A stretch of 64,000 bases of DNA, from NCBI GenBank assembly GCA_943840615.1, contig CALSVI010000019.1, forward strand, positions 6,362 to 70,361. Direction: 5' to 3'. The position numbers were made by a program, and so were the translations under genes. Below are positions 16,019 through 58,915 of the stretch, piece after piece (position 1 is the stretch's first letter; every line of letters starts with the position of its first letter). Source of the stretch: an uncultured Luminiphilus sp. (GTDB taxonomy: Bacteria; Pseudomonadota; Gammaproteobacteria; Pseudomonadales; Halieaceae). The notes beneath the pieces were generated by a model, which saw nothing but the letters and a program-made list of their open reading frames with translations, did not search any database and was not told the origin of the DNA.

Positions 16019-16185
16019 ATCAACTCAATCCCGATTCGCCCGTGACACATTCGAAGACCGCCGAGCGAAATTACCCGCCCCAACCAAAATCAGCGGTAGC
16101 ATGGATCGCTGAACTCTGGTAGCTTCCCGTGCCCAATTGGTCCCGACAAAGTCTGTCACGACACTCTACGAGGAACCGCACCATC

Positions 16186-17115
16186 ATGGCCAGTCGAAAA
16201 CCTGCCGCCAAGAAGGCTCCGGCAAAGAAAAAAGCTGTCGCCAAAAAAGCGCCCGCTAAAAAGGCTCCGGCAAAGAAAAAAGCTGCCGCCAAAAAAGCGC
16301 CCGCTAAAAAGGCTCCGGCAAAGAAAAAAGCTGTCGCCAAAAAAGCGCCCGCTAAAAAGGCTCCGGCAAAGAAAAAAGCTGCCGCCAAAAAAGCGCCCGC
16401 TAAAAAGGCTCCGGCAAAGAAAAAAGCTGTCGCCAAAAAAGCGCCCGCTAAAAAGGCTCCGGCAAAGAAAAAAGCTGTCGCCAAAAAAGCGCCCGCTAAA
16501 AAGGCTCCGGCAAAGAAAAAAGCTGCCGCCAAAAAAGCGCCCGCTAAAAAGGCTCCGGCAAAGAAAAAAGCTGCCGCCAAAAAAGCGCCCGCTAAAAAGG
16601 CTCCGGCAAAGAAAAAAGCTGTCGCCACAAAAGCACCCGCTAAAAAGGCTCCCGCAAAGAAAAAAGCGTCTCCGAAGCTCGCTCGGGCTGTCGGTCAGCT
16701 ACAGAAGTTTGATGACTTCAAGCCCTACAAACCCGGGCGCGGCGAAAGCTACATGAACGATGAGCAAATCGAGCATTTCCAGGGCATTTTGTTCAACTGG
16801 CGGGGCGAATTGGTCGATGAAGTCAGTCGAACTGTGTCTCACATGAAAGATGAGGCAGCCAATTTCCCCGACCCCGCGGACCGCGCAACGCAGGAGGAGG
16901 AGTTCAGCCTTGAGCTGCGAACTCGCGACCGTGAGCGGAAGTTGATCAAGAAAATCGACTCGACGCTGGATCGGCTTCAAAACGATGACTATGGGTACTG
17001 TGATGCCTGTGGTATCGAAATTGGCATTCAACGGCTGGAAGCCCGCCCTACCGCAACACTGTGCATCGACTGCAAGACGCTTGCCGAGATCAAGGAGCGG
17101 CAGGAGCTGGGTTGA
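16186..17115 (+). CDS. dksA: RNA polymerase-binding factor DksA with long Lys/Ala/Pro N-terminal repeat
   Basis: C-terminal [28 protein letters not shown] and 4-Cys finger (CDAC...CIDC); AGGA upstream of ATG 16186. Confidence 0.95.
16213..16668 (+). repeat. Coding tandem repeat: 9 copies plus a partial copy of a 48-bp unit (KAPAKKKA[V/A]AKKAPAK)
   Basis: aaggctccggcaaagaaaaaagctgYcgccaaaaaagcgcccgctaaa starts at 16213, 16261, 16309 ... 16597. Confidence 0.97.
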
Positions 17116-17981
17116 GCACCGTAGCGACCGCCAACGACCCCACCCCCTACAGAGGGCGTTTTGCGCCCTCACCCACCGGTCCCCTGCATGCGGGATCTCT
17201 GGTCGCGGCATTGGCCAGCTTTTTAGATGCCAGGCACTGCAGCGGTGCGTGGCAGCTCCGCGTCGATGATATCGACCCACCAAGAGCCGTTGCCGGCAGT
17301 GTGGAAGCCATCACCGGTGCGCTGAGCGCCCATGGTCTTTTTTGGGACGGGCCCCTCGTTTTCCAGTCTGCCTCAGACACCCGATATGAGCGCGCATTGC
17401 AACGCTTGACCAACATGGGATGCTTATTTCGCTGTCGTTGCACGCGGGCAACCCTCTCTGATCGCGGCAGTTGTGGCCAGAATTGCGAAGACCGGGAAAT
17501 CAGCAGCGGTGAGCCGCACAGCCTGCGCGTCAAAACTCATCCGGAACAGATGCACGGATTCGAGGATCGCTTCCTTGGAATACAGTCGGTTTTCGCAGAC
17601 ACGATTCCTAAGGACTTTATCGTAAAGCGCAGAGATGGGCTTTATGCCTATCAACTTGCTGCGGCCATCGACGACGCGCAACCCCATTTCACCCACATCG
17701 TCAGAGGTGCGGATCTTTTGGATTCGACTTATCGGCAGCGATGGTTGCAGCAGCTCCTCAAACTTGAGGCGCCAGCCTATGGCCATGTCCCCGTCGTGCT
17801 GGATGAGGCGGGGAATAAGCTCAGCAAACAGGCAGGCGCAGCCGCACTGGATACCCGTCAGCCTGAGGACAATCTGCGAGCAGGTTTACGTCATTTGGGT
17901 CAAACGGCACCCCCCAGCTCGGCACGGAGCGTGGCCGAGATTCTTACCCACGCCGTCGAATATTGGACAGTGGGAAAATAA
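17112..17981 (+). CDS. gluQ: Glutamyl-Q tRNA(Asp) synthetase
   Basis: [29 protein letters not shown] start overlaps the dksA stop. Confidence 0.94.
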
Positions 17982-18072
17982 TCAACACCTCTGCCTGAAT
18001 GTGTTACTTTTTAACTCGCGCACCGAGAGATCCTCGGTAACATATCGTCTCGCGATACAGGTTTAGGGCTGC

Positions 18073-19422
18073 ATGCGAATACAGTTGGTCGAAAAAGATC
18101 CGGAGTTGTTGGAACAGCTGACCCGGAGACTTGAGGAAGCGGGCGTGAATGTGACCGCCACTGCGCCTCGAAGTGAAGAAGAGCTCGCCCACTGGCAGCC
18201 AGAGGGCGATCTGATTGTGGCCGGCCATCACCCCTTATTTGCAGATCTGAAAGTGCTCGCCCGAAGTGCTTGGCCCAGGCCACTGATCGCGCTGCTGCCC
18301 ACACTTGACCCTTGCGCCATCGTAAAAGCAGCGCGAGCCGGCGCCATGGATGTATTCGACCGAACCGCTGGCATCAACCCGATTGCGGAGTGGATCGTCC
18401 ATTGGCGCGAACAGCACGAGGCATCGCAATCAACTCGTCGCCTCAGCGATCACTTTTATAGTGACACCTGTTCTTTCATGCAAACGCTTCAGAGCACCAT
18501 CGAACGGGTCGCATTAACCGATTCGACAGTGCTGATTGTCGGCGAAACAGGGACTGGTAAAGAACTCGCGGCTCGGCAAGTCCACCGGATCAGCCCACGG
18601 CGAGAGGCATCCATCATCACCGTGAACTGCGCCGCTATTCCCGAAACACTCATTGAATCGGAATTGTTCGGCTACGAGAAAGGTGCGTTTACGGGCGCAA
18701 CGAATAACCGCGTCGGGCTCATCGAAGCGGCGCACGGGGGGACTCTGTTCTTGGACGAAATTGGCGAGCTGCCCCTTGCCGCGCAAGCCCGCCTGTTGCG
18801 CTTCATGCAAGAGGGTGAGATCCGCAGAATTGGCTCAGTGACTAGCAAAAAAGTAGACGTTCGGCTGATCTGTGCGACCCATCGTAATCTTGCAGAGCTT
18901 TCGGAACACAATGAATTCCGCAGAGACCTTTTTTACCGTATCGACGTACTGAGGCTGGACATTCCCCCTTTGCGCGAACGCGAGGGCGATATTATTGCAA
19001 TGGCTAACTGGTTCATCGAGCAACAGTCGCACAAACTGGGGGTTCCCGCTAAACCTCTCTCGAAAAGTAGCCTGCAAATCCTTGAAGCACATCATTGGCC
19101 TGGCAACGTTCGCGAGTTACAGAACGTGATCGAACGCGCGCTGGTCATGTCGATGGGTGCGTCTCTGGAGATCACTTTGTCGACTGGCGCAGTGTCCGGT
19201 TATGCGGAGCATGAGGAAGGCGGCGCCTCAACCACCAGGTTGGGTGCTGATGACAGCTCGCAAGAGCTGTCGCTGGAAGATTATTTCCAGCGTTTCGTGT
19301 TGCAGCATCAGGACGCTATGAATGAAACGGAGCTTGCACAAAAACTGGGCATCAGCCGTAAATGCCTCTGGGAGCGCCGACAGCGATTCGGTATCCCGCG
19401 CGAGAAACAAAAATCTGCGTGA
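18073..19422 (+). CDS. cbrB: Sigma-54 enhancer-binding protein, CbrB orthologue with degenerate receiver domain
   Basis: [40 protein letters not shown]-terminus [37 protein letters not shown] is CbrB-like; located between gluQ and pcnB. Confidence 0.88.
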
Positions 19423-19446
19423 TCGTTCCCTTTGTGGAGAACATTT

Positions 19447-19473
19447 GTAACACTGAGGTGCAAATCCGTAACA
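19447..19473 (+). promoter_or_regulatory. Putative CbrB enhancer subsites GTAACA-N15-GTAACA
   Basis: GTAACA at 19447-19452 and 19468-19473, about 75-100 bp upstream of a sigma-54 box. TGTTAC/GTAACA is the CbrB subsite in Pseudomonas. Confidence 0.7.
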
Positions 19474-19547
19474 CCTACATTCCTAAAGACCGCCGAAATA
19501 CGGTCAAAATCTGGACAACACAATGTTTTTAATGGCTTTTTCGTATG

Positions 19548-19563
19548 TGGCACGTGCCCTGCA
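19548..19563 (+). promoter_or_regulatory. Sigma-54 (-24/-12) promoter
   Basis: TGGCACGTGCCCTGCA with exact GG-N10-GC spacing. Confidence 0.88.
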
Positions 19564-19573
19564 CTTATTAGTG

Positions 19574-19662
19574 CAGAGCCTCAATAATAATAACTGGCCC
19601 AATAAAAACAACGATGTCATAACGGACCTGGGTGGGGAAGGCAACTTCCCCATGTTTCGTTT
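19574..19662 (+). ncRNA. Candidate minimal CrcZ-like Hfq-decoy sRNA; ends inferred
   Basis: Follows the sigma-54 box; AATAATAATAA (19583-19593) and AATAAAAACAA (19601-19611) AAnAAnAA motifs; then hairpin TGGGGAAG-GCAA-CTTCCCCA plus TGTTTCGTTT; sits at the crcZ position between cbrB and pcnB. Confidence 0.65.
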
Positions 19663-19703
19663 AGGGCCACACCTTTTCCCTACTTCAGCACTTCCCCCTC
19701 CCT

Positions 19704-19776
19704 CAACACTTTCCCGCGCCTTTAACACTTTCCCGGCCTTTAACACTTTCCCGGCCGTTAACACTTTCCCGGCCTT
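19704..19776. repeat. Non-coding 18-bp tandem repeat x4 (TAACACTTTCCCGGCCTT)
   Basis: Copies at 19704 (degenerate, 19 bp), 19723, 19741 (one mismatch) and 19759. Confidence 0.93.
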
Positions 19777-19840
19777 TGACAGTAGTCGCTTCCATTGGCT
19801 TTTTCTCTGATGCTTGCGCGCATCGCGGGGCAATCGAATT

Positions 19841-21115
19841 TTGACTGCCAATAAGCCAAAAGCGCTGGCATTTCAGTCTTCAGATTTTTCCCGCGGCGCA
19901 CTTATGGTGGTGGCGCAACTGCAAGAACAAGGTTTTGACGCATTTGTGGTCGGCGGTGCGGTACGGGATCTGCTTCTGGGTGAGCGCCCGAAAGACTTCG
20001 ACGTCGCCACCAATGCCACTCCAGAACAGATCAAACAATGCTTTCGCAATGCGCGCATTATCGGTCGGCGATTCCAGATTGTGCATGTTCGCTCAGCCGG
20101 CGAGATCATCGAAGTCACCACGTTTCGCAGGGGACACGACGTGTCTCACAGCGGACAGGAAGCCCGATCGGACTCGTCCGGGCGTCTGCTTCGGGATAAC
20201 GTGTATGGCACGCTCGAAGAAGATGCTCGGCGGCGCGATCTTACGATCAATGCCCTCTACTACGACACGCAGTCCAACACTTTAATCGACCAACTGGGCG
20301 GCTGCGCAGACGTGGACAGCCGAATCATCCGAATTATTGGTGATCCGGTGGAGCGCTACACGGAGGACCCGGTTCGAATGCTGAGAGTCCTGAGATTTGC
20401 TGCGCGCCTGCAATTTGAACTGGAATCCGAGACCGAGGCAGGGATAGCCAAGACGCTGGCGCTGCTGGAGGACATTCCGTCTGCCCGACTGTTCGACGAA
20501 TGGCTGAAGTTGTTCATGAATGGTTGCTCGGCACCGACCTTCAAATTACTCAGCTCACATCAATTACTGATCCGCCTGATGGGTGAAGGTGTCGATGACG
20601 CCTTGAATCCCGAGCCTGCCCAGAACCTGCAGCTCCTTGCGCTCAGCAACACAGATCAGCGAGTGGCTGATCAACGTCCTGTCACGCCGGCCTTTCTGCT
20701 CGCAGCGCTTTACTGGCCCGCCACGGAGCGGCGCGCTGAGACACTCCTGGCAGACGGAGAATCTCCTATTCAGGCGATGCATAGCGCCGGGCAACAGATT
20801 GTGCATGAGGCATGCCAGCATCTCGCCATACCCAAACGATTCTCTCTCGCTATGCGCGACATTTGGGATTTACAGCCGCGCCTTGAACGCATGCAGCCGA
20901 AAAAAATCAAGGACCTGCTCGCGCACCGATGGTTCCGAGCGGCATTCGACCTGCGCTTGCTTCGAGAAGAAACCGGTGCGCTGGGCGACGACTGCAGCGC
21001 GTTCTGGACCACCCAGCAAAAACAGCATCCAGAGCTCGTAGGGATCAATCGAGGTCGTCAGGATGAGCGCGCCAAGCGCCGACCAAGGCCCCGCCGCAGG
21101 AACCATAATCCGTGA
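19841..21115 (+). CDS. pcnB: Poly(A) polymerase I; start uncertain
   Basis: VGGAVRDLLLG..PKDFDV, IIGRRFQIVHV, RRDLTINAL, EDPVRMLR, Arg-rich tail. Confidence 0.95.
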   Translation: MTANKPKALAFQSSDFSRGALMVVAQLQEQGFDAFVVGGAVRDLLLGERPKDFDVATNATPEQIKQCFRNARIIGRRFQIVHVRSAGEIIEVTTFRRGHDVSHSGQEARSDSSGRLLRDNVYGTLEEDARRRDLTINALYYDTQSNTLIDQLGGCADVDSRIIRIIGDPVERYTEDPVRMLRVLRFAARLQFELESETEAGIAKTLALLEDIPSARLFDEWLKLFMNGCSAPTFKLLSSHQLLIRLMGEGVDDALNPEPAQNLQLLALSNTDQRVADQRPVTPAFLLAALYWPATERRAETLLADGESPIQAMHSAGQQIVHEACQHLAIPKRFSLAMRDIWDLQPRLERMQPKKIKDLLAHRWFRAAFDLRLLREETGALGDDCSAFWTTQQKQHPELVGINRGRQDERAKRRPRPRRRNHNP

Positions 21116-28154: not shown

Positions 28155-28410
28155 GGCACTATCGATGTTGGACTGTCAACCCTAGCGCCCCGCTCGCAAA
28201 GTTCAATTATTTACGTTTTCCTCAACAGCTTTTGGTCTGAGCTCAATTATACTGCCGCCCGGCGGAGCGTCAGCTGCGCCAATACCAGTAAAACTGTGGT
28301 GATCAGGTGGCTAGATCCAGCGGGGTAATCCCCGGTGGCGTTTGCCCTCTCGATTATTGTTATTACCACTGATTATTGTATTCGATGTTTTTTAAACCAC
28401 GGAGAACCCA

Positions 28411-36371: not shown

Positions 36372-36788
36372 TCAGTCTAGGGAGTCGGAATCAGCGTCAG
36401 AATCTGTCGATGCACTGCCGTGAAGGTTTGCATCGATTCGACGCACTTCTTGGAGCAAGCTCTCCATGTCGCGGCCGCGACCGACACTCTCGTCGAACCG
36501 GAAACTAATACGAGGTACCGTTCGCATCGCAGACGCCTTTGCCAATTGGGAGCGAAGAAAGCCGGAGGCCTTCGCCAGCACAGCGGTAATCTCTGAGCGC
36601 TCCTCGGGCGTCGTGTCATCCATTAAGGTGAAGAACACCTTGGCGTGAGACAAATCCCGACTGACCTCAACGCCGGTCAGGCTCACCGCCTCAACGCGGG
36701 GGTCTCGCACAGAGTTCTGCAGCAGCCGTGCCAGCTCCTCGTGCAAAAAATGGCTGACGCGCTGAGTCCGCTCAAACTCCTTACCCAT
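36372..36788 (-). CDS. rbfA: Ribosome-binding factor A
   Basis: [26 protein letters not shown]. Confidence 0.96.
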
Positions 36789-57666: not shown

Positions 57667-58915
57667 ACCCCCCTTCACCGGCTCGCTGGCCGGAACCGAA
57701 CGGCTTGCGCGCGAGCCTCTAATACTGCTATTTCTTGCGCTGTTTGCGACGGCGGCAGGACAGGCGTTTGTCTTTGCCATCTTGCCGCCGCTCGGGCGAT
57801 CTGTCGGCCTCGATGAGATTCGCATCACCGCCATTATTTCAACCTCTGCATTGGTTTTTACGCTGGTCGCGCCCTTCTGGGGGCGCTTTCTCGGACCGGG
57901 TGGGCCGCAAGCCCGTCATTGTGATTGGATTGATGGGTTACTGCATCGGCTCACTCTCATTCGCCGTGCTGTTCTCACTTTGCAGGACAAGGCCTGATAA
58001 CCGGGTTGACGCTGTTTGTCGTCGCACTGATCGTCCGTTCGCTTCAGGCAGCGACCATGTCTGCCACCAATCCGGGGTGCACGGCCTATGCCGCTGATCA
58101 CACCGTGGCACAGTTTCGTATCAAAACGCTGGCGCGACTTTCCAGCGCCAATAGCGTCGGAATGATCATGGGACCCGTCATGGCGGGACTGGTGGCTGGG
58201 CTGGGGCTATTAGCGCCACTGGTTGTCGCGTCGATCCTCTCGGGCCTCGCCGCGATCGTCATCATCGCCTCAAGCTCTCCAAGGGCGTCACACCCCGCAG
58301 CAACGCAAGACCCAGCCTCGTCGCCTGGGCTACTTCGACGCCGCCTGTTCGGGTCTATCTGTACTCTCCGCCATCGGCGCCTTTCACCGGCTTCGCGATG
58401 GTGCAGCAGACGCTGGCATTTCGACTGCAGGACGTGCTGAATCTCTCTGGCGTCGAGACCGCCCAGTACACCGGCTGGGCGATGATGGTGTCGGCCGCCA
58501 GCTCGCTGCTCATGCAGTTTACGTGATCGCGCAGCGCTTTAGCCGGGCCACCCGATTCAACTCGTGCGCTGGGGAGCCGGATTGTTGCTGGCTGGCACCG
58601 TGGTCATCAGCGCACTGGGCAGCTGGCCCGCAGTACTCTCCAGCATGGTCCTGATCGGCGCGGGCCTTGGCTTGCTGATGCCCGCCGTCGCCGCCGGTGC
58701 ATCGCTGGCCGTGGGGCCGAAGAGCAAGGTGGCGTGTCGGGCCTGGTCAGCGCCTGTCCCGCCGCAGGCTTTGTGCTGGGCCCGATCAGCGGCGGGTTCT
58801 TGTCTCAATACCAGCACTATCAGCCCGCGCGGGCTGGGGCGCGACGATCATTCTGGTGGCCATGTTTTTGGTGACCCTTACCCCTCGCAAAGACGCGCAC
58901 GCTCCCCAACATTAG
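57659..58915 (+). CDS. MFS transporter, broken by several frameshifts
   Basis: Hydrophobic segments across frames, motif A (SDRVGRKPVI), GMIMGPVMAG. Confidence 0.8.

What the first reader, a model, noticed from the sequence alone, without database searches (positions are those of the whole stretch)
17982..19662. Minimal, kinase-less CbrB / sigma-54 / mini-CrcZ module: candidate new catabolite-repression circuit
Seen: a CbrB-like activator, then GTAACA-N15-GTAACA, an AT-rich spacer, an exact sigma-54 box, two AAnAAnAA tracts and a GNRA hairpin with a U-rich tail, all between gluQ and pcnB. Known: in Pseudomonas this slot holds cbrA-cbrB-crcZ; CrcZ is a several-hundred-nt RNA that sequesters Hfq/Crc through AAnAAnAA motifs and needs CbrA-phosphorylated CbrB. 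Inference: this organism has a stripped-down version, with only 91 bp between gluQ and cbrB (no cbrA) and an RNA of about 90 nt. That would be a compact Hfq-decoy system in a non-pseudomonad with a different input signal.
Basis: partly seen in the sequence, partly recalled or inferred. Interest (0 to 1): 0.85.

Follow-up and report, generated by a model that had tools for sequence, protein, structure and literature searches.

The report
Kinase-less CbrB with a mini-CrcZ RNA
A marine bacterium keeps the Pseudomonas-type carbon-preference switch (an activator protein and a small decoy RNA for the RNA-binding proteins Hfq and Crc), but its decoy RNA is only about 89 bases long and its whole genus has lost the sensor kinase that normally controls the activator.

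Summary
Between gluQ and pcnB lie a CbrB orthologue (18073-19422), two GTAACA boxes (19447-19473), a sigma-54 box (19548-19563) and a ~89-nt terminator-ended block (about 19574-19662) with two AAnAAnAA tracts.

The block is a conserved gene. A model built from 22 genus copies finds exactly one copy in 39 of 41 genus genomes (17 of 19 outside the training set). Its mean pairwise identity is 0.81, against 0.52-0.56 for the flanks. It aligns weakly to the 3' module of Rfam CrcZ (15.2 bits; cut-off 95).

cbrA was not found in any of the 41 genus genomes. Two sister genera and all 16 other-family loci that had enough upstream sequence carry it. The receiver phospho-acceptor Asp-52 is Gly in the window's clade and Glu in another. 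hfq, crc and rpoN are present.

Similar ~90-nt RNAs also occur next to cbrA-cbrB in other families, so the small RNA and the kinase loss are separate events.

Best reading: a phosphorylation-independent orphan CbrB drives a minimal CrcZ-type Hfq/Crc decoy. No transcript ends, Hfq binding or input signal were shown. It is a new variant of a known kind.

The parts
17061..17981 (+). gluQ (tRNA glutamyl-Q34 synthetase). It is the gene directly upstream of the activator, where cbrA sits in the canonical locus.
   Evidence: NCBIfam NF004314 at 313 bits, over its cut-off. gluQ is directly upstream of the activator in the 23 same-genus loci that hold the CbrB orthologue.
18002..18042 (+). TGTTAC-N29-GTAACA pair in the 91-bp gluQ-cbrB spacer. 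Candidate CbrB autoregulation site (inferred).
   Evidence: One of only 3 paired half-sites (10-32 nt apart) in the 2.09-Mb assembly. GTAACA/TGTTAC-type hexamers recur upstream of the activator gene in all three genus clades.
18073..19422 (+). Orphan CbrB orthologue: a pseudo-receiver (about residues 1-122), a sigma-54 AAA+ domain and a helix-turn-helix. Asp-52 is replaced by Gly, the conserved Thr by Leu and the conserved Lys by Arg.
   Evidence: NtrC-family hits. Alignment with CbrBs from canonical loci. AF2 model with a (beta-alpha)5 N-terminal domain at block pLDDT 81-93. Tree. GAFTGA and Walker motifs read.
19447..19473 (+). Upstream activating sequence: two GTAACA hexamers 15 nt apart, about 105 and 126 nt upstream of the predicted +1.
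   Evidence: 1 match against 0 expected. Conserved in the genus. Matches the R1/R2 subsites, spaced 12-16 nt, described for P. putida CbrB (PMC6296734, passages) and seen in the canonical locus L125.
19474..19547 (+). AT-rich spacer with a recurring TGTTTT element. Candidate DNA-bending or IHF site (inferred, not tested).
   Evidence: Read. Mean pairwise identity is only 0.55. IHF dependence of crcZ promoters is taken from PMC6296734.
19548..19563 (+). Sigma-54 (-24/-12) promoter box.
   Evidence: A box is present at the same place in 22 of 24 genus loci. rpoN is present in the genome.
19574..19662 (+). Mini-CrcZ-like small RNA gene, about 89 nt. The ends are predicted, not mapped.
   Evidence: Rfam CrcZ local hit at 19576-19662, 15.2 bits, E 0.25, model positions 281-372 of 398. 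Model R1 hit at 103 bits, corresponding to window 19572-19661, the only hit in the genome. One hit in 39 of 41 genus genomes. Identity 0.81 against 0.52-0.56 in the flanks. Contigs of relatives in RNA libraries diverge from the window at 19575 and at 19657-19662.
19578..19598 (+). Stem-loop 1: a 3-bp GCC/GGC stem presenting the first A-rich tract (19583-19593) in a 15-nt loop.
   Evidence: RNAalifold consensus and single-sequence fold. Pairs are kept in 22 of 22 sequences, but only G-U changes occur and none is compensatory.
19601..19611 (+). Second A-rich tract (four A-R-N triplets), predicted single-stranded.
   Evidence: The invariant columns follow AAnAAnAA, and variation falls on the third base of each triplet.
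19634..19662 (+). Intrinsic terminator: 7-bp GC-rich stem, GNRA loop (GCAA), T-rich tail.
   Evidence: The stem is invariant apart from one G-U change in 22 sequences.
19814..21115 (+). pcnB (poly(A) polymerase), the downstream neighbour as in the canonical locus.
   Evidence: TIGR01942 at 450 bits. The distance from the RNA end to pcnB-homologous sequence ranges from 52 to 320 nt in the genus.

Best explanation
The locus is a reduced version of the CbrA/CbrB-CrcZ-Hfq/Crc catabolite-repression module. The CbrB orthologue binds the two GTAACA boxes and, with sigma-54 RNA polymerase, starts transcription near 19574. The transcript ends at the hairpin near 19662, giving an RNA of about 89 nt. Its two A-R-N repeat tracts, one in a hairpin loop and one single-stranded, bind the distal face of Hfq together with Crc. 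This titrates Hfq/Crc away from A-rich sites on mRNAs, as CrcZ does with 5-6 such tracts.

Unlike the known system, the activator cannot be switched by its kinase. cbrA was deleted in the ancestor of this genus, and in the window's clade the receiver has lost the phospho-acceptor Asp and the conserved Thr and Lys. RNA output is therefore most likely set by the amount of CbrB (it has candidate self-binding boxes in front of its own gene) and by sigma-54 activity, not by phosphotransfer.

Shown: gene content, motifs, conservation, loss of cbrA and loss of the phospho-site. Inferred: transcription start and end, Hfq/Crc binding, decoy function and the mode of control.
For: Orthology of the activator:
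- Gene order dksA-gluQ-EBP-RNA-pcnB-folK matches a canonical locus, L125, which reads gluQ-cbrA-cbrB-CrcZ (360 bits)-pcnB.
- The C-terminal helix-turn-helix is almost identical to canonical CbrB.

RNA gene:
- 22 of 24 genus loci show boxes, promoter and RNA.
- Model R1 finds one copy in 39 of 41 genus genomes, 17 of 17 high-quality ones and 17 of 19 outside the training set. The two misses are 83% and 54% complete.
- There is a single copy in the own genome.
- Mean pairwise identity is 0.81, against 0.66 for the last 90 nt of the activator gene and 0.52-0.56 for the flanks.
- Invariant columns follow AAnAAnAAnAA.
- 1- and 2-nt indels argue against coding.

Link to CrcZ:
- The Rfam local hit falls on model positions 281-372.
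- R1 hits the 3' end of a canonical CrcZ at 23.9 bits, E 0.053.
- Rfam CrcZ and R1 hit the same places in 5 other genomes.

Partners:
- The Hfq core is 56 of 58 residues identical to the Hfq in PDB 6o1k.
- Crc lies between rph and pyrE, and its best solved relative is Crc 4jg3 at E 4.5e-54. A Crc orthologue is present in 39 of 41 genus genomes.
- rpoN is present.

Kinase loss:
- gluQ abuts the activator in the 23 genus loci with the orthologue. cbrA abuts it in all 16 other-family loci that had enough upstream sequence and in two sister genera.
- No CbrA orthologue was found in 41 genus genomes; the best hit is 32% identity over the transporter part only. The positive controls score E 2e-261 or better.

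Phospho-site:
- Asp-52 is Gly in 5 of 5 readable sequences of the window's clade, Glu in 9, and kept in 7.
- The receiver fold is retained in the AF2 model.
- Receiver dN is 3.4-4.5 times that of the AAA+ domain in the window's clade; dN/dS is 0.40 in the one unsaturated pair.

Other:
- Only this sigma-54 box in the genome has paired CbrB-type hexamers upstream.
Against: - No transcript ends, strand or level could be read. All RNA runs were assemblies, and some contigs bridge the promoter, the RNA and pcnB.
- The Rfam CrcZ score is far below the gathering cut-off (15.2 against 95 bits) and the reciprocal hit is marginal (E 0.053). Homology to CrcZ therefore rests mainly on position, promoter type and motif design.
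- The stems show no compensatory changes (0 of 10 pairs). The single-sequence fold is not unusually stable (z = -1.5).
- Only two A-rich tracts are present. Whether they compete effectively for Hfq/Crc is unknown.
- Only 3 candidate genes with an 11-nt A-rich tract at a start codon turned up in a crude scan.
- In two genus clades the receiver is still under strong constraint and keeps Asp or carries Glu. 'Signal-blind' may therefore not hold across the genus.
- The own assembly is only 82% complete.
Confidence: 0.65

Rival explanations
1. Same RNA and activator, but the degenerate receiver has become a sensor in its own right. It would bind a metabolite or a partner protein that gates AAA+ assembly, so the circuit keeps a carbon-status input without a kinase.
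For: The N-terminal domain is kept at full length with a confident receiver fold. dN/dS of 0.40 in the window's clade shows that some constraint remains, and the receiver is strongly constrained in the other two kinase-less clades. By recall, sigma-54 activators with degenerate receivers controlled by partners or ligands are known (FleQ type).
Against: No conserved new neighbour gene appears at the locus. The receiver evolves 3.4-4.5 times faster than the AAA+ domain in the window's clade. No ligand site was identified. The AF2 fold leans on canonical CbrBs in the alignment.
Confidence: 0.2
2. The sigma-54 promoter mainly serves pcnB, and the conserved block is a 5' leader or attenuator, not a free-standing regulatory RNA.
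For: pcnB follows on the same strand. The terminator tail is interrupted (ATGTTTCGTTT), so read-through is possible. No sigma-70-like promoter was found between the hairpin and pcnB. Contigs from RNA libraries bridge the block and pcnB in 3 runs, although contigs cannot show a single transcript.
Against: The 52-320 nt between the hairpin and pcnB are unconserved (identity 0.52) and variable in length, and they vary between strains. The same slot holds free-standing CrcZ in the canonical locus. Some relatives carry 2-3 tandem copies, each with its own terminator. The A-R-N periodicity points to Hfq binding.
Confidence: 0.1
3. The RNA acts by base-pairing with target mRNAs as a classical Hfq-dependent small RNA, not as a protein decoy.
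For: The invariant stretch between the second A-rich tract and the terminator (ACGGACCTGG) is conserved without an evident structural role. It could be a seed region.
Against: No target search was done. The design (A-rich tracts, sigma-54/CbrB promoter, position) copies the decoy CrcZ. Crc, which works with Hfq on A-rich sites, is retained in 39 of 41 genomes.
Confidence: 0.1
4. The module is a decaying remnant left after cbrA loss and no longer functions.
For: The receiver is fast-evolving with all key residues lost in the window's clade. The genomes are small (2-3.5 Mb).
Against: The AAA+ and helix-turn-helix domains are under strong purifying selection (dN/dS 0.105 and 0.02). Walker, GAFTGA and arginine motifs are intact. 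The boxes, promoter and RNA are conserved across a genus whose activator proteins are only 50-68% identical.
Confidence: 0.03

Closest known systems
CbrA/CbrB-CrcZ-Hfq/Crc catabolite repression system of Pseudomonas and Azotobacter
   Same: Same gene slot (gluQ ... cbrB-RNA-pcnB). Same activator orthologue with near-identical DNA-binding helix. GTAACA subsites 12-16 nt apart upstream of a sigma-54 promoter. An A-rich RNA ending in a GC-rich terminator. hfq, crc (between rph and pyrE) and rpoN are present.
   Different: No CbrA in the genus. The receiver lacks Asp-52, the conserved Thr and the conserved Lys. The RNA is about 89 nt with 2 A-rich tracts, against about 400 nt with 5-6. Only one genomic promoter has the paired boxes, against 61 ChIP targets reported in P. 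putida (abstract of PMC6296734, listed). The host is not a member of Pseudomonadaceae. Reviews call the system unique to that family (PMC8871633 passages; PMC6296734) and say Crc is found only in Pseudomonas and related groups (PMC10832556 passage).
Rfam CrcZ (RF01675), 3'-terminal module (model positions about 281-372)
   Same: A short stem presenting an A-rich loop, then a second A-rich tract, a linker and a GGGG...CCCC terminator. The local alignment covers the whole predicted RNA. The genus model hits the 3' end of a canonical CrcZ.
   Different: It scores 15.2 bits against a gathering score of 95. The first 280 model positions have no counterpart. The linker sequence ACGGACCTGG is specific to this group and its relatives.
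~90-nt CrcZ-like RNAs downstream of complete cbrA-cbrB pairs in sister genera and other families of the same GTDB order
   Same: Same promoter type, length, two or three A-rich tracts and a near-identical terminator region. R1 matches 14 of 150 genomes in at least 7 families.
   Different: Those genomes keep cbrA and a canonical receiver. Several have 2-3 tandem copies.
Sigma-54 activators with degenerate, phosphorylation-independent receiver-like domains (FleQ/FlrA type), and the NtrC D54E phosphomimetic mutant
   Same: A receiver fold without a usable phospho-acceptor, fused to an intact AAA+ domain. One genus clade has Glu at the acceptor position, the substitution that activates NtrC.
   Different: This is a recent, genus-level derivative of a classical two-component regulator, with intermediates (Asp kept, Glu, Gly) still visible among living species. 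No partner such as FleN was identified.
Protein-sequestering small RNAs such as CsrB/RsmY/RsmZ (recalled)
   Same: The decoy principle: repeated short motifs titrate a translational repressor.
   Different: A different protein (Hfq/Crc rather than CsrA/RsmA), a different motif (A-R-N rather than GGA) and a different promoter control.

Membership tests
CrcZ (Rfam RF01675) | Scores at or above the family's gathering cut-off (95 bits) over the full model | tested here: not met
   15.2 bits, E 0.25, local match to model positions 281-372 of 398. No match in the own genome in the order-wide search at E <= 0.01.
CrcZ (Rfam RF01675) | Gene lies directly downstream of cbrB and upstream of pcnB | tested here: met
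   Same order as canonical locus L125.
CrcZ (Rfam RF01675) | Sigma-54 promoter with CbrB subsites (GTAACA/TGTTAC, 12-16 nt apart) upstream | tested here: met
   Sequence motifs only. The subsite definition comes from PMC6296734 passages. Activation itself was not tested.
CrcZ (Rfam RF01675) | Several (5-6) A-rich Hfq/Crc-binding tracts in an RNA of about 400 nt | tested here: not met
   Two tracts in about 89 nt. Canonical L125 shows six tracts.
CrcZ (Rfam RF01675) | Binds and sequesters Hfq/Crc; levels respond to carbon source | not testable with these tools
   Only the presence of conserved Hfq and Crc could be shown.
CbrB (NtrC-family response regulator of the CbrAB system) | Receiver - sigma-54 AAA+ - helix-turn-helix architecture with a GAFTGA loop | tested here: met
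CbrB (NtrC-family response regulator of the CbrAB system) | Orthology by gene neighbourhood and sequence | tested here: met
   Synteny. 44-50% identity to 17 cbrA-linked CbrBs, with a near-identical C-terminal helix-turn-helix. Other sigma-54 activators in the same genomes match at 33-52% over only part of the query.
CbrB (NtrC-family response regulator of the CbrAB system) | Phospho-acceptor Asp-52 plus the conserved Thr and Lys of the receiver | tested here: not met
   Gly, Leu and Arg at these positions in the window. Asp-52 as acceptor is taken from a PMC8871633 passage.
CbrB (NtrC-family response regulator of the CbrAB system) | Cognate kinase CbrA (SLC5-PAS-histidine kinase) encoded upstream | tested here: not met
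   gluQ abuts the gene. No CbrA orthologue in 41 genus genomes. Positive controls.
Crc (catabolite repression control protein) | Exo/endo/phosphatase-fold protein closest to Crc rather than exonuclease III, encoded between rph and pyrE | tested here: met
   253-aa ORF between RNase PH and orotate phosphoribosyltransferase genes. Best solved relative is 4jg3 Crc at 186.6 bits, against 126.8 bits for the best exonuclease. NCBIfam has no Crc-specific model.
Phosphorylation-independent (atypical) response regulators | Receiver fold retained while the acceptor Asp is replaced | tested here: met
   AF2 (beta-alpha)5 fold, residues 2-122, block pLDDT 81-93. Asp replaced by Gly. Activity without phosphorylation was not tested.

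The most novel reading that the evidence does not exclude
A whole genus of marine gammaproteobacteria runs Hfq/Crc catabolite control without any kinase. The receiver of CbrB has been converted, through a phosphomimetic Glu stage still seen in living species, into either a constitutive module or a direct sensor. The ~90-nt RNA is the ancestral unit from which the 400-nt multi-tract CrcZ of Pseudomonas was built by tandem multiplication. That would give a natural minimal system for asking what signal CbrB itself can read.
Probability: 0.3. Interest if true: 0.8.

Novelty: new variant of a known kind. Interest (0 to 1): 0.62.

Why it matters
- Recent reviews state that CbrAB is unique to Pseudomonadaceae and that Crc occurs only in Pseudomonas and close relatives. 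Here complete cbrA-cbrB-RNA loci appear in many other families of the order. One genus has then removed the kinase while keeping the activator, promoter, RNA, Hfq and Crc.
- This is a natural deletion experiment on an open question: what does CbrA sense, and how much does CbrB need it?
- The living series Asp, Glu, Gly at the acceptor site shows how a two-component regulator becomes kinase-independent.
- An 89-nt, two-tract RNA defines the smallest CrcZ-type unit. It would be a convenient object for Hfq/Crc binding and structural work, and it suggests that CrcZ has a modular origin.
- The organisms appear to be abundant marine heterotrophs, because the locus is held in marine and seawater RNA libraries. 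The circuit may therefore shape substrate preference in the ocean.

Tried and rejected
- **Transcript mapping.** One run search and one lay were used. All four runs (X1, X9, X12, X19, from four studies) are kept as assembled contigs, which cannot show starts, ends, strand or level. The uncovered stretch 19469-19557 in X1 is not evidence. The summed depth of 92.6 in bin 19605-19651, against about 13 over the activator gene, includes contigs of relatives, so I do not count it as evidence of expression.
- **Structural covariation.** 0 of 10 predicted pairs show compensatory change. The fold z-score is -1.5. Structure is neither supported nor refuted.
- **Small-protein reading.** Every copy has a stop-free frame, as expected from AAN periodicity. 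That frame has no start codon inside the RNA (read), and 1- and 2-nt indels break it between clades. Rejected.
- **Crc by family model.** NCBIfam has no Crc-specific model. Crc was identified through solved structures and synteny instead.
- **Target scan.** A crude scan for 11-nt A-rich tracts at start codons gave only 3 candidates. There were no gene calls, so it was not pursued.
- **Other Rfam families.** The only other hits in 17900-20000 are chance-level.
- **Sigma-70 promoters.** None was found in 17900-19900, so the activator's own promoter is undefined.
- **Literature.** Searches listed no report of CrcZ, CbrB or a kinase-less CbrB outside Pseudomonas/Azotobacter. The listings are partial: only 12-25 of up to 949 papers were shown, and subscription journals are not covered. 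Supplementary ChIP-seq tables of PMC6296734 were not consulted.
- **Order of changes at the acceptor site.** The activator tree is unrooted, so the order of the Asp, Glu and Gly states is an inference.
Full report
**What is there**

The window carries these genes:

| Coordinates | Gene |
|---|---|
| DksA match in the ORF 16129-17115 | dksA |
| 17061-17981 | gluQ |
| 18073-19422 | sigma-54 enhancer-binding protein, 449 aa |
| 19814-21115 | pcnB |
| from 21112 | folK |

The 391-bp gap between the activator and pcnB holds, in order:

- GTAACA-N15-GTAACA at 19447-19473 (1 match in the window, 0 expected)
- an AT-rich spacer
- a sigma-54 box at 19548-19563 (3 matches to the degenerate pattern, 0.51 expected)
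- a block from about 19574 to 19662 with two A-rich tracts (19583-19593 and 19601-19611)
- a 7-bp GC-rich hairpin with a GCAA loop and T-rich tail (19634-19662)

gluQ and the activator are 91 bp apart.

**The activator is CbrB**

I fetched a locus from the same GTDB order that carries a full-scoring CrcZ (360 bits). It reads gluQ-cbrA (984 aa)-cbrB (479 aa)-CrcZ-pcnB. The window's protein shares this neighbourhood. Its C-terminal DNA-binding segment is almost the same as in that CbrB. It is 44-50% identical to 17 cbrA-linked CbrBs. Other sigma-54 activators in the same genomes match at 33-52% over only part of the query. The Walker, GAFTGA and arginine motifs are intact.

**The kinase is gone from the whole genus**

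- In the 23 same-genus loci that hold the orthologue, gluQ lies directly upstream of the activator. In all 16 other-family loci that had enough upstream sequence, the C-terminus of CbrA lies there instead.
- Two other genera of the same family have gluQ-cbrA-cbrB-RNA-pcnB.
- A search of 41 genus genomes with CbrA found no orthologue. The best hits are 32% identity over the transporter-like part in three genomes (ORFs of 1138-1156 aa, a different SLC5-type kinase), plus generic kinase-domain hits. In the own genome the only hits are 27-28% matches to kinases that sit next to other activators.
- The same query finds CbrA at E 2e-261 or better, 49-52% identity over the full length, in sister genera and another family.
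- Seventeen of the 41 genomes are at least 90% complete. The own assembly is 82% complete.

**The receiver has lost its phospho-site**

Canonical CbrBs carry Asp-52 in the context SDLRLPG, a conserved Thr, and Lys in AKP. The role of Asp-52 is taken from PMC8871633 (passage). The genus splits into three groups:

| Group | Sequences | Acceptor position | Thr | Lys |
|---|---|---|---|---|
| One clade | 9 | Glu | kept (Ser in one) | kept |
| Second clade | 7 | Asp kept | Ala | kept |
| Window's clade | 5 readable | Gly | Leu | Arg |

In the window's clade the acidic pair is also altered.

- AlphaFold2, run with a 36-sequence alignment, still predicts a (beta-alpha)5 receiver fold for residues 2-122 at block pLDDT 81-93. 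The canonical sequences in the alignment help that prediction.
- In the window's clade the receiver evolves 3.4-4.5 times faster at non-synonymous sites than the AAA+ domain. dN/dS is 0.40, against 0.105 for AAA+ and 0.02 for the helix-turn-helix, in the one pair that is not saturated.
- In the other two clades the receiver is as constrained as in canonical CbrBs.
- On an unrooted maximum-likelihood tree the 17 cbrA-linked proteins form one group (support 100/100, branch 1.01). The Glu-bearing sequences sit nearest to them. The window's clade and the Asp-keeping clade sit on long branches (0.9 and 1.49).
- A sequence of events (kinase loss, then Glu, then further decay) is plausible but depends on the root.

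**The RNA gene**

- Twenty-two of the 24 genus loci show the boxes, promoter and a ~90-nt block. One further locus ends at a contig edge, and one had no CbrB orthologue in the fetched locus.
- The 22 copies align with 83% mean column identity.
- Mean pairwise identities are 0.81 for the block, 0.66 for the last 90 nt of the activator gene, 0.56 for the box region, 0.55 for the spacer and 0.52 for the 90 nt after the terminator.
- A covariance model built from these copies finds one hit in the own genome at 103 bits. It finds exactly one hit, at 96-111 bits, in 39 of 41 genus genomes. That includes 17 of 19 genomes not used to build it; the two misses are 83% and 54% complete.
- Invariant columns follow AAnAAnAAnAA, and variation falls on every third base. 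By recall of Hfq structures, this is the signature of A-R-N triplets read by the distal face of Hfq.
- The predicted structure is simple: a 3-bp stem presenting tract 1 in a 15-nt loop, tract 2 single-stranded, an invariant linker, and the terminator.
- No pair shows compensatory change, so structure is not independently supported.
- The block is not coding. The alignment has 1- and 2-nt indels between clades, and the stop-free frame has no start codon inside the RNA (read; frames counted).

**Relation to CrcZ**

- Rfam's CrcZ model aligns locally to 19576-19662 at 15.2 bits (E 0.25, cut-off 95), using model positions 281-372. That is the last A-rich hairpin, the last tract and the terminator.
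- The genus model in turn hits the 3' end of a canonical CrcZ at 23.9 bits, E 0.053.
- The two models hit the same places in five other genomes.
- Across 150 genomes of the order, the genus model matches 14 genomes in at least 7 families. Rfam CrcZ passes its cut-off in 5 of 121 genomes, in two families.
- Relatives that keep cbrA have similar ~90-100-nt RNAs with nearly the same terminator region. Several have two or three tandem copies, and some have long multi-tract RNAs.
- The small RNA is therefore widespread and predates the kinase loss. It fails membership of Rfam CrcZ as curated, but it matches CrcZ in position, promoter type and motif design.

**Partners**

- The Hfq core is 56 of 58 residues identical to the Hfq chain of the Hfq-Crc-RNA complex 6o1k.
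- A 253-aa protein encoded between rph and pyrE is closest to Crc among solved structures (4jg3, E 4.5e-54), ahead of exonucleases. Orthologues are present in 39 of 41 genus genomes.
- rpoN is present.

**How the boxes compare**

The canonical locus shows TGTTAC-N14-GTAACA-N16-GTAAC upstream of its sigma-54 box. PMC6296734 (passages) describes non-palindromic subsites F1, R1 and R2 spaced 12-16 nt apart, and IHF dependence. The window keeps an R1-N15-R2-like pair.

Genome-wide, 1 of 179 loose sigma-54-like boxes has two such hexamers 40-260 nt upstream, and it is this one. Only three paired half-sites exist in the assembly, where about 1.5 would be expected by my own rough estimate. They are the RNA enhancer, a pair in the 91-bp spacer in front of the activator gene (18002-18042), and one elsewhere. 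Hexamers of this type recur in front of the activator gene in all three genus clades. This suggests autoregulation and a regulon reduced to the RNA.

**Expression data**

RNA-library assemblies from four runs of four studies contain the block. Contigs of relatives match the window only between 19575 and 19657-19662, which marks the conserved unit. They say nothing about transcript ends or abundance. Some contigs include promoter sequence or bridge to pcnB.

**Mechanism proposed**

An orphan CbrB that cannot be phosphorylated binds the two boxes and activates sigma-54 transcription of an ~89-nt RNA. The RNA's two A-R-N tracts sequester Hfq, with Crc, and so relieve translational repression of A-rich mRNAs. 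[quoted passage not shown] The input is open: activator level and autoregulation, sigma-54 activity, or a new signal read by the pseudo-receiver.

**Literature**

Searches listed no report of CrcZ or CbrB outside Pseudomonas and Azotobacter. Reviews state that the system is exclusive to Pseudomonadaceae and that Crc occurs only in Pseudomonas and related groups. These searches cover an open-access library only, and the listings were partial.

**Verdict**

Interest is moderate to high for specialists in bacterial carbon control and two-component evolution.

Noticed in passing
window 19689-19781: An 18-nt tandem repeat of about 5 copies lies between the RNA terminator and pcnB. Contigs of related strains skip or replace 19668-19760 or 19668-19810. 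Another species (L086) has a long array of a different short repeat at the same place. This is a strain-variable repeat hotspot of unknown role.
   Followed up: partly
L001, L002, L003, L145 (two copies each); L105 (three hits); L006 and L110 (long RNAs): Relatives that keep cbrA have 2-3 tandem copies of the ~90-nt module, each with its own terminator. Others have long RNAs with many A-rich repeats. This suggests that multi-tract CrcZ arose by multiplication of a small module.
   Followed up: partly
window 36718-36733 (-) and 58414-58429 (+): Two more matches to the sigma-54 box pattern. The first lies inside an ORF (36372-36788, minus strand). The second lies about 135 nt upstream of an ORF starting at 58564.
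   Followed up: no
window 28354-28364 (-): The only other AAYAAYAAYAA tract in the window. It could be an Hfq/Crc target site.
   Followed up: no
window 16129-17115 (+): The ORF holding dksA is open for 328 aa. DksA models match only residues 197-326. Residues 20-116 give weak hits to histone H1-like models. This is either an over-long ORF call or an N-terminal extension.
   Followed up: no
G000:C9:191054 (outside the window): The third paired GTAACA/TGTTAC site in the genome (GTAACA-N30-TGTTAC). It could be another CbrB site or chance.
   Followed up: no
L128, L129, L130 (genomes G006, G023, G020): Three genus genomes encode a 1138-1156-aa protein whose N-terminal part is 31-32% identical to the transporter-like domain of CbrA. 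It is a different SLC5-linked kinase, not CbrA.
   Followed up: no
L110 (genome G029, another family): A CbrB with a canonical receiver but neither cbrA nor gluQ within 1254 nt upstream. No CbrA hit at E 1e-60 in that 75%-complete, 1.7-Mb genome. It may be a second, independent kinase loss or an assembly gap.
   Followed up: partly
window 19621-19630 (ACGGACCTGG): An invariant 10-nt stretch between the second A-rich tract and the terminator. It is conserved in the genus and recognisable in other families, with no structural role in the predicted folds.
   Followed up: partly
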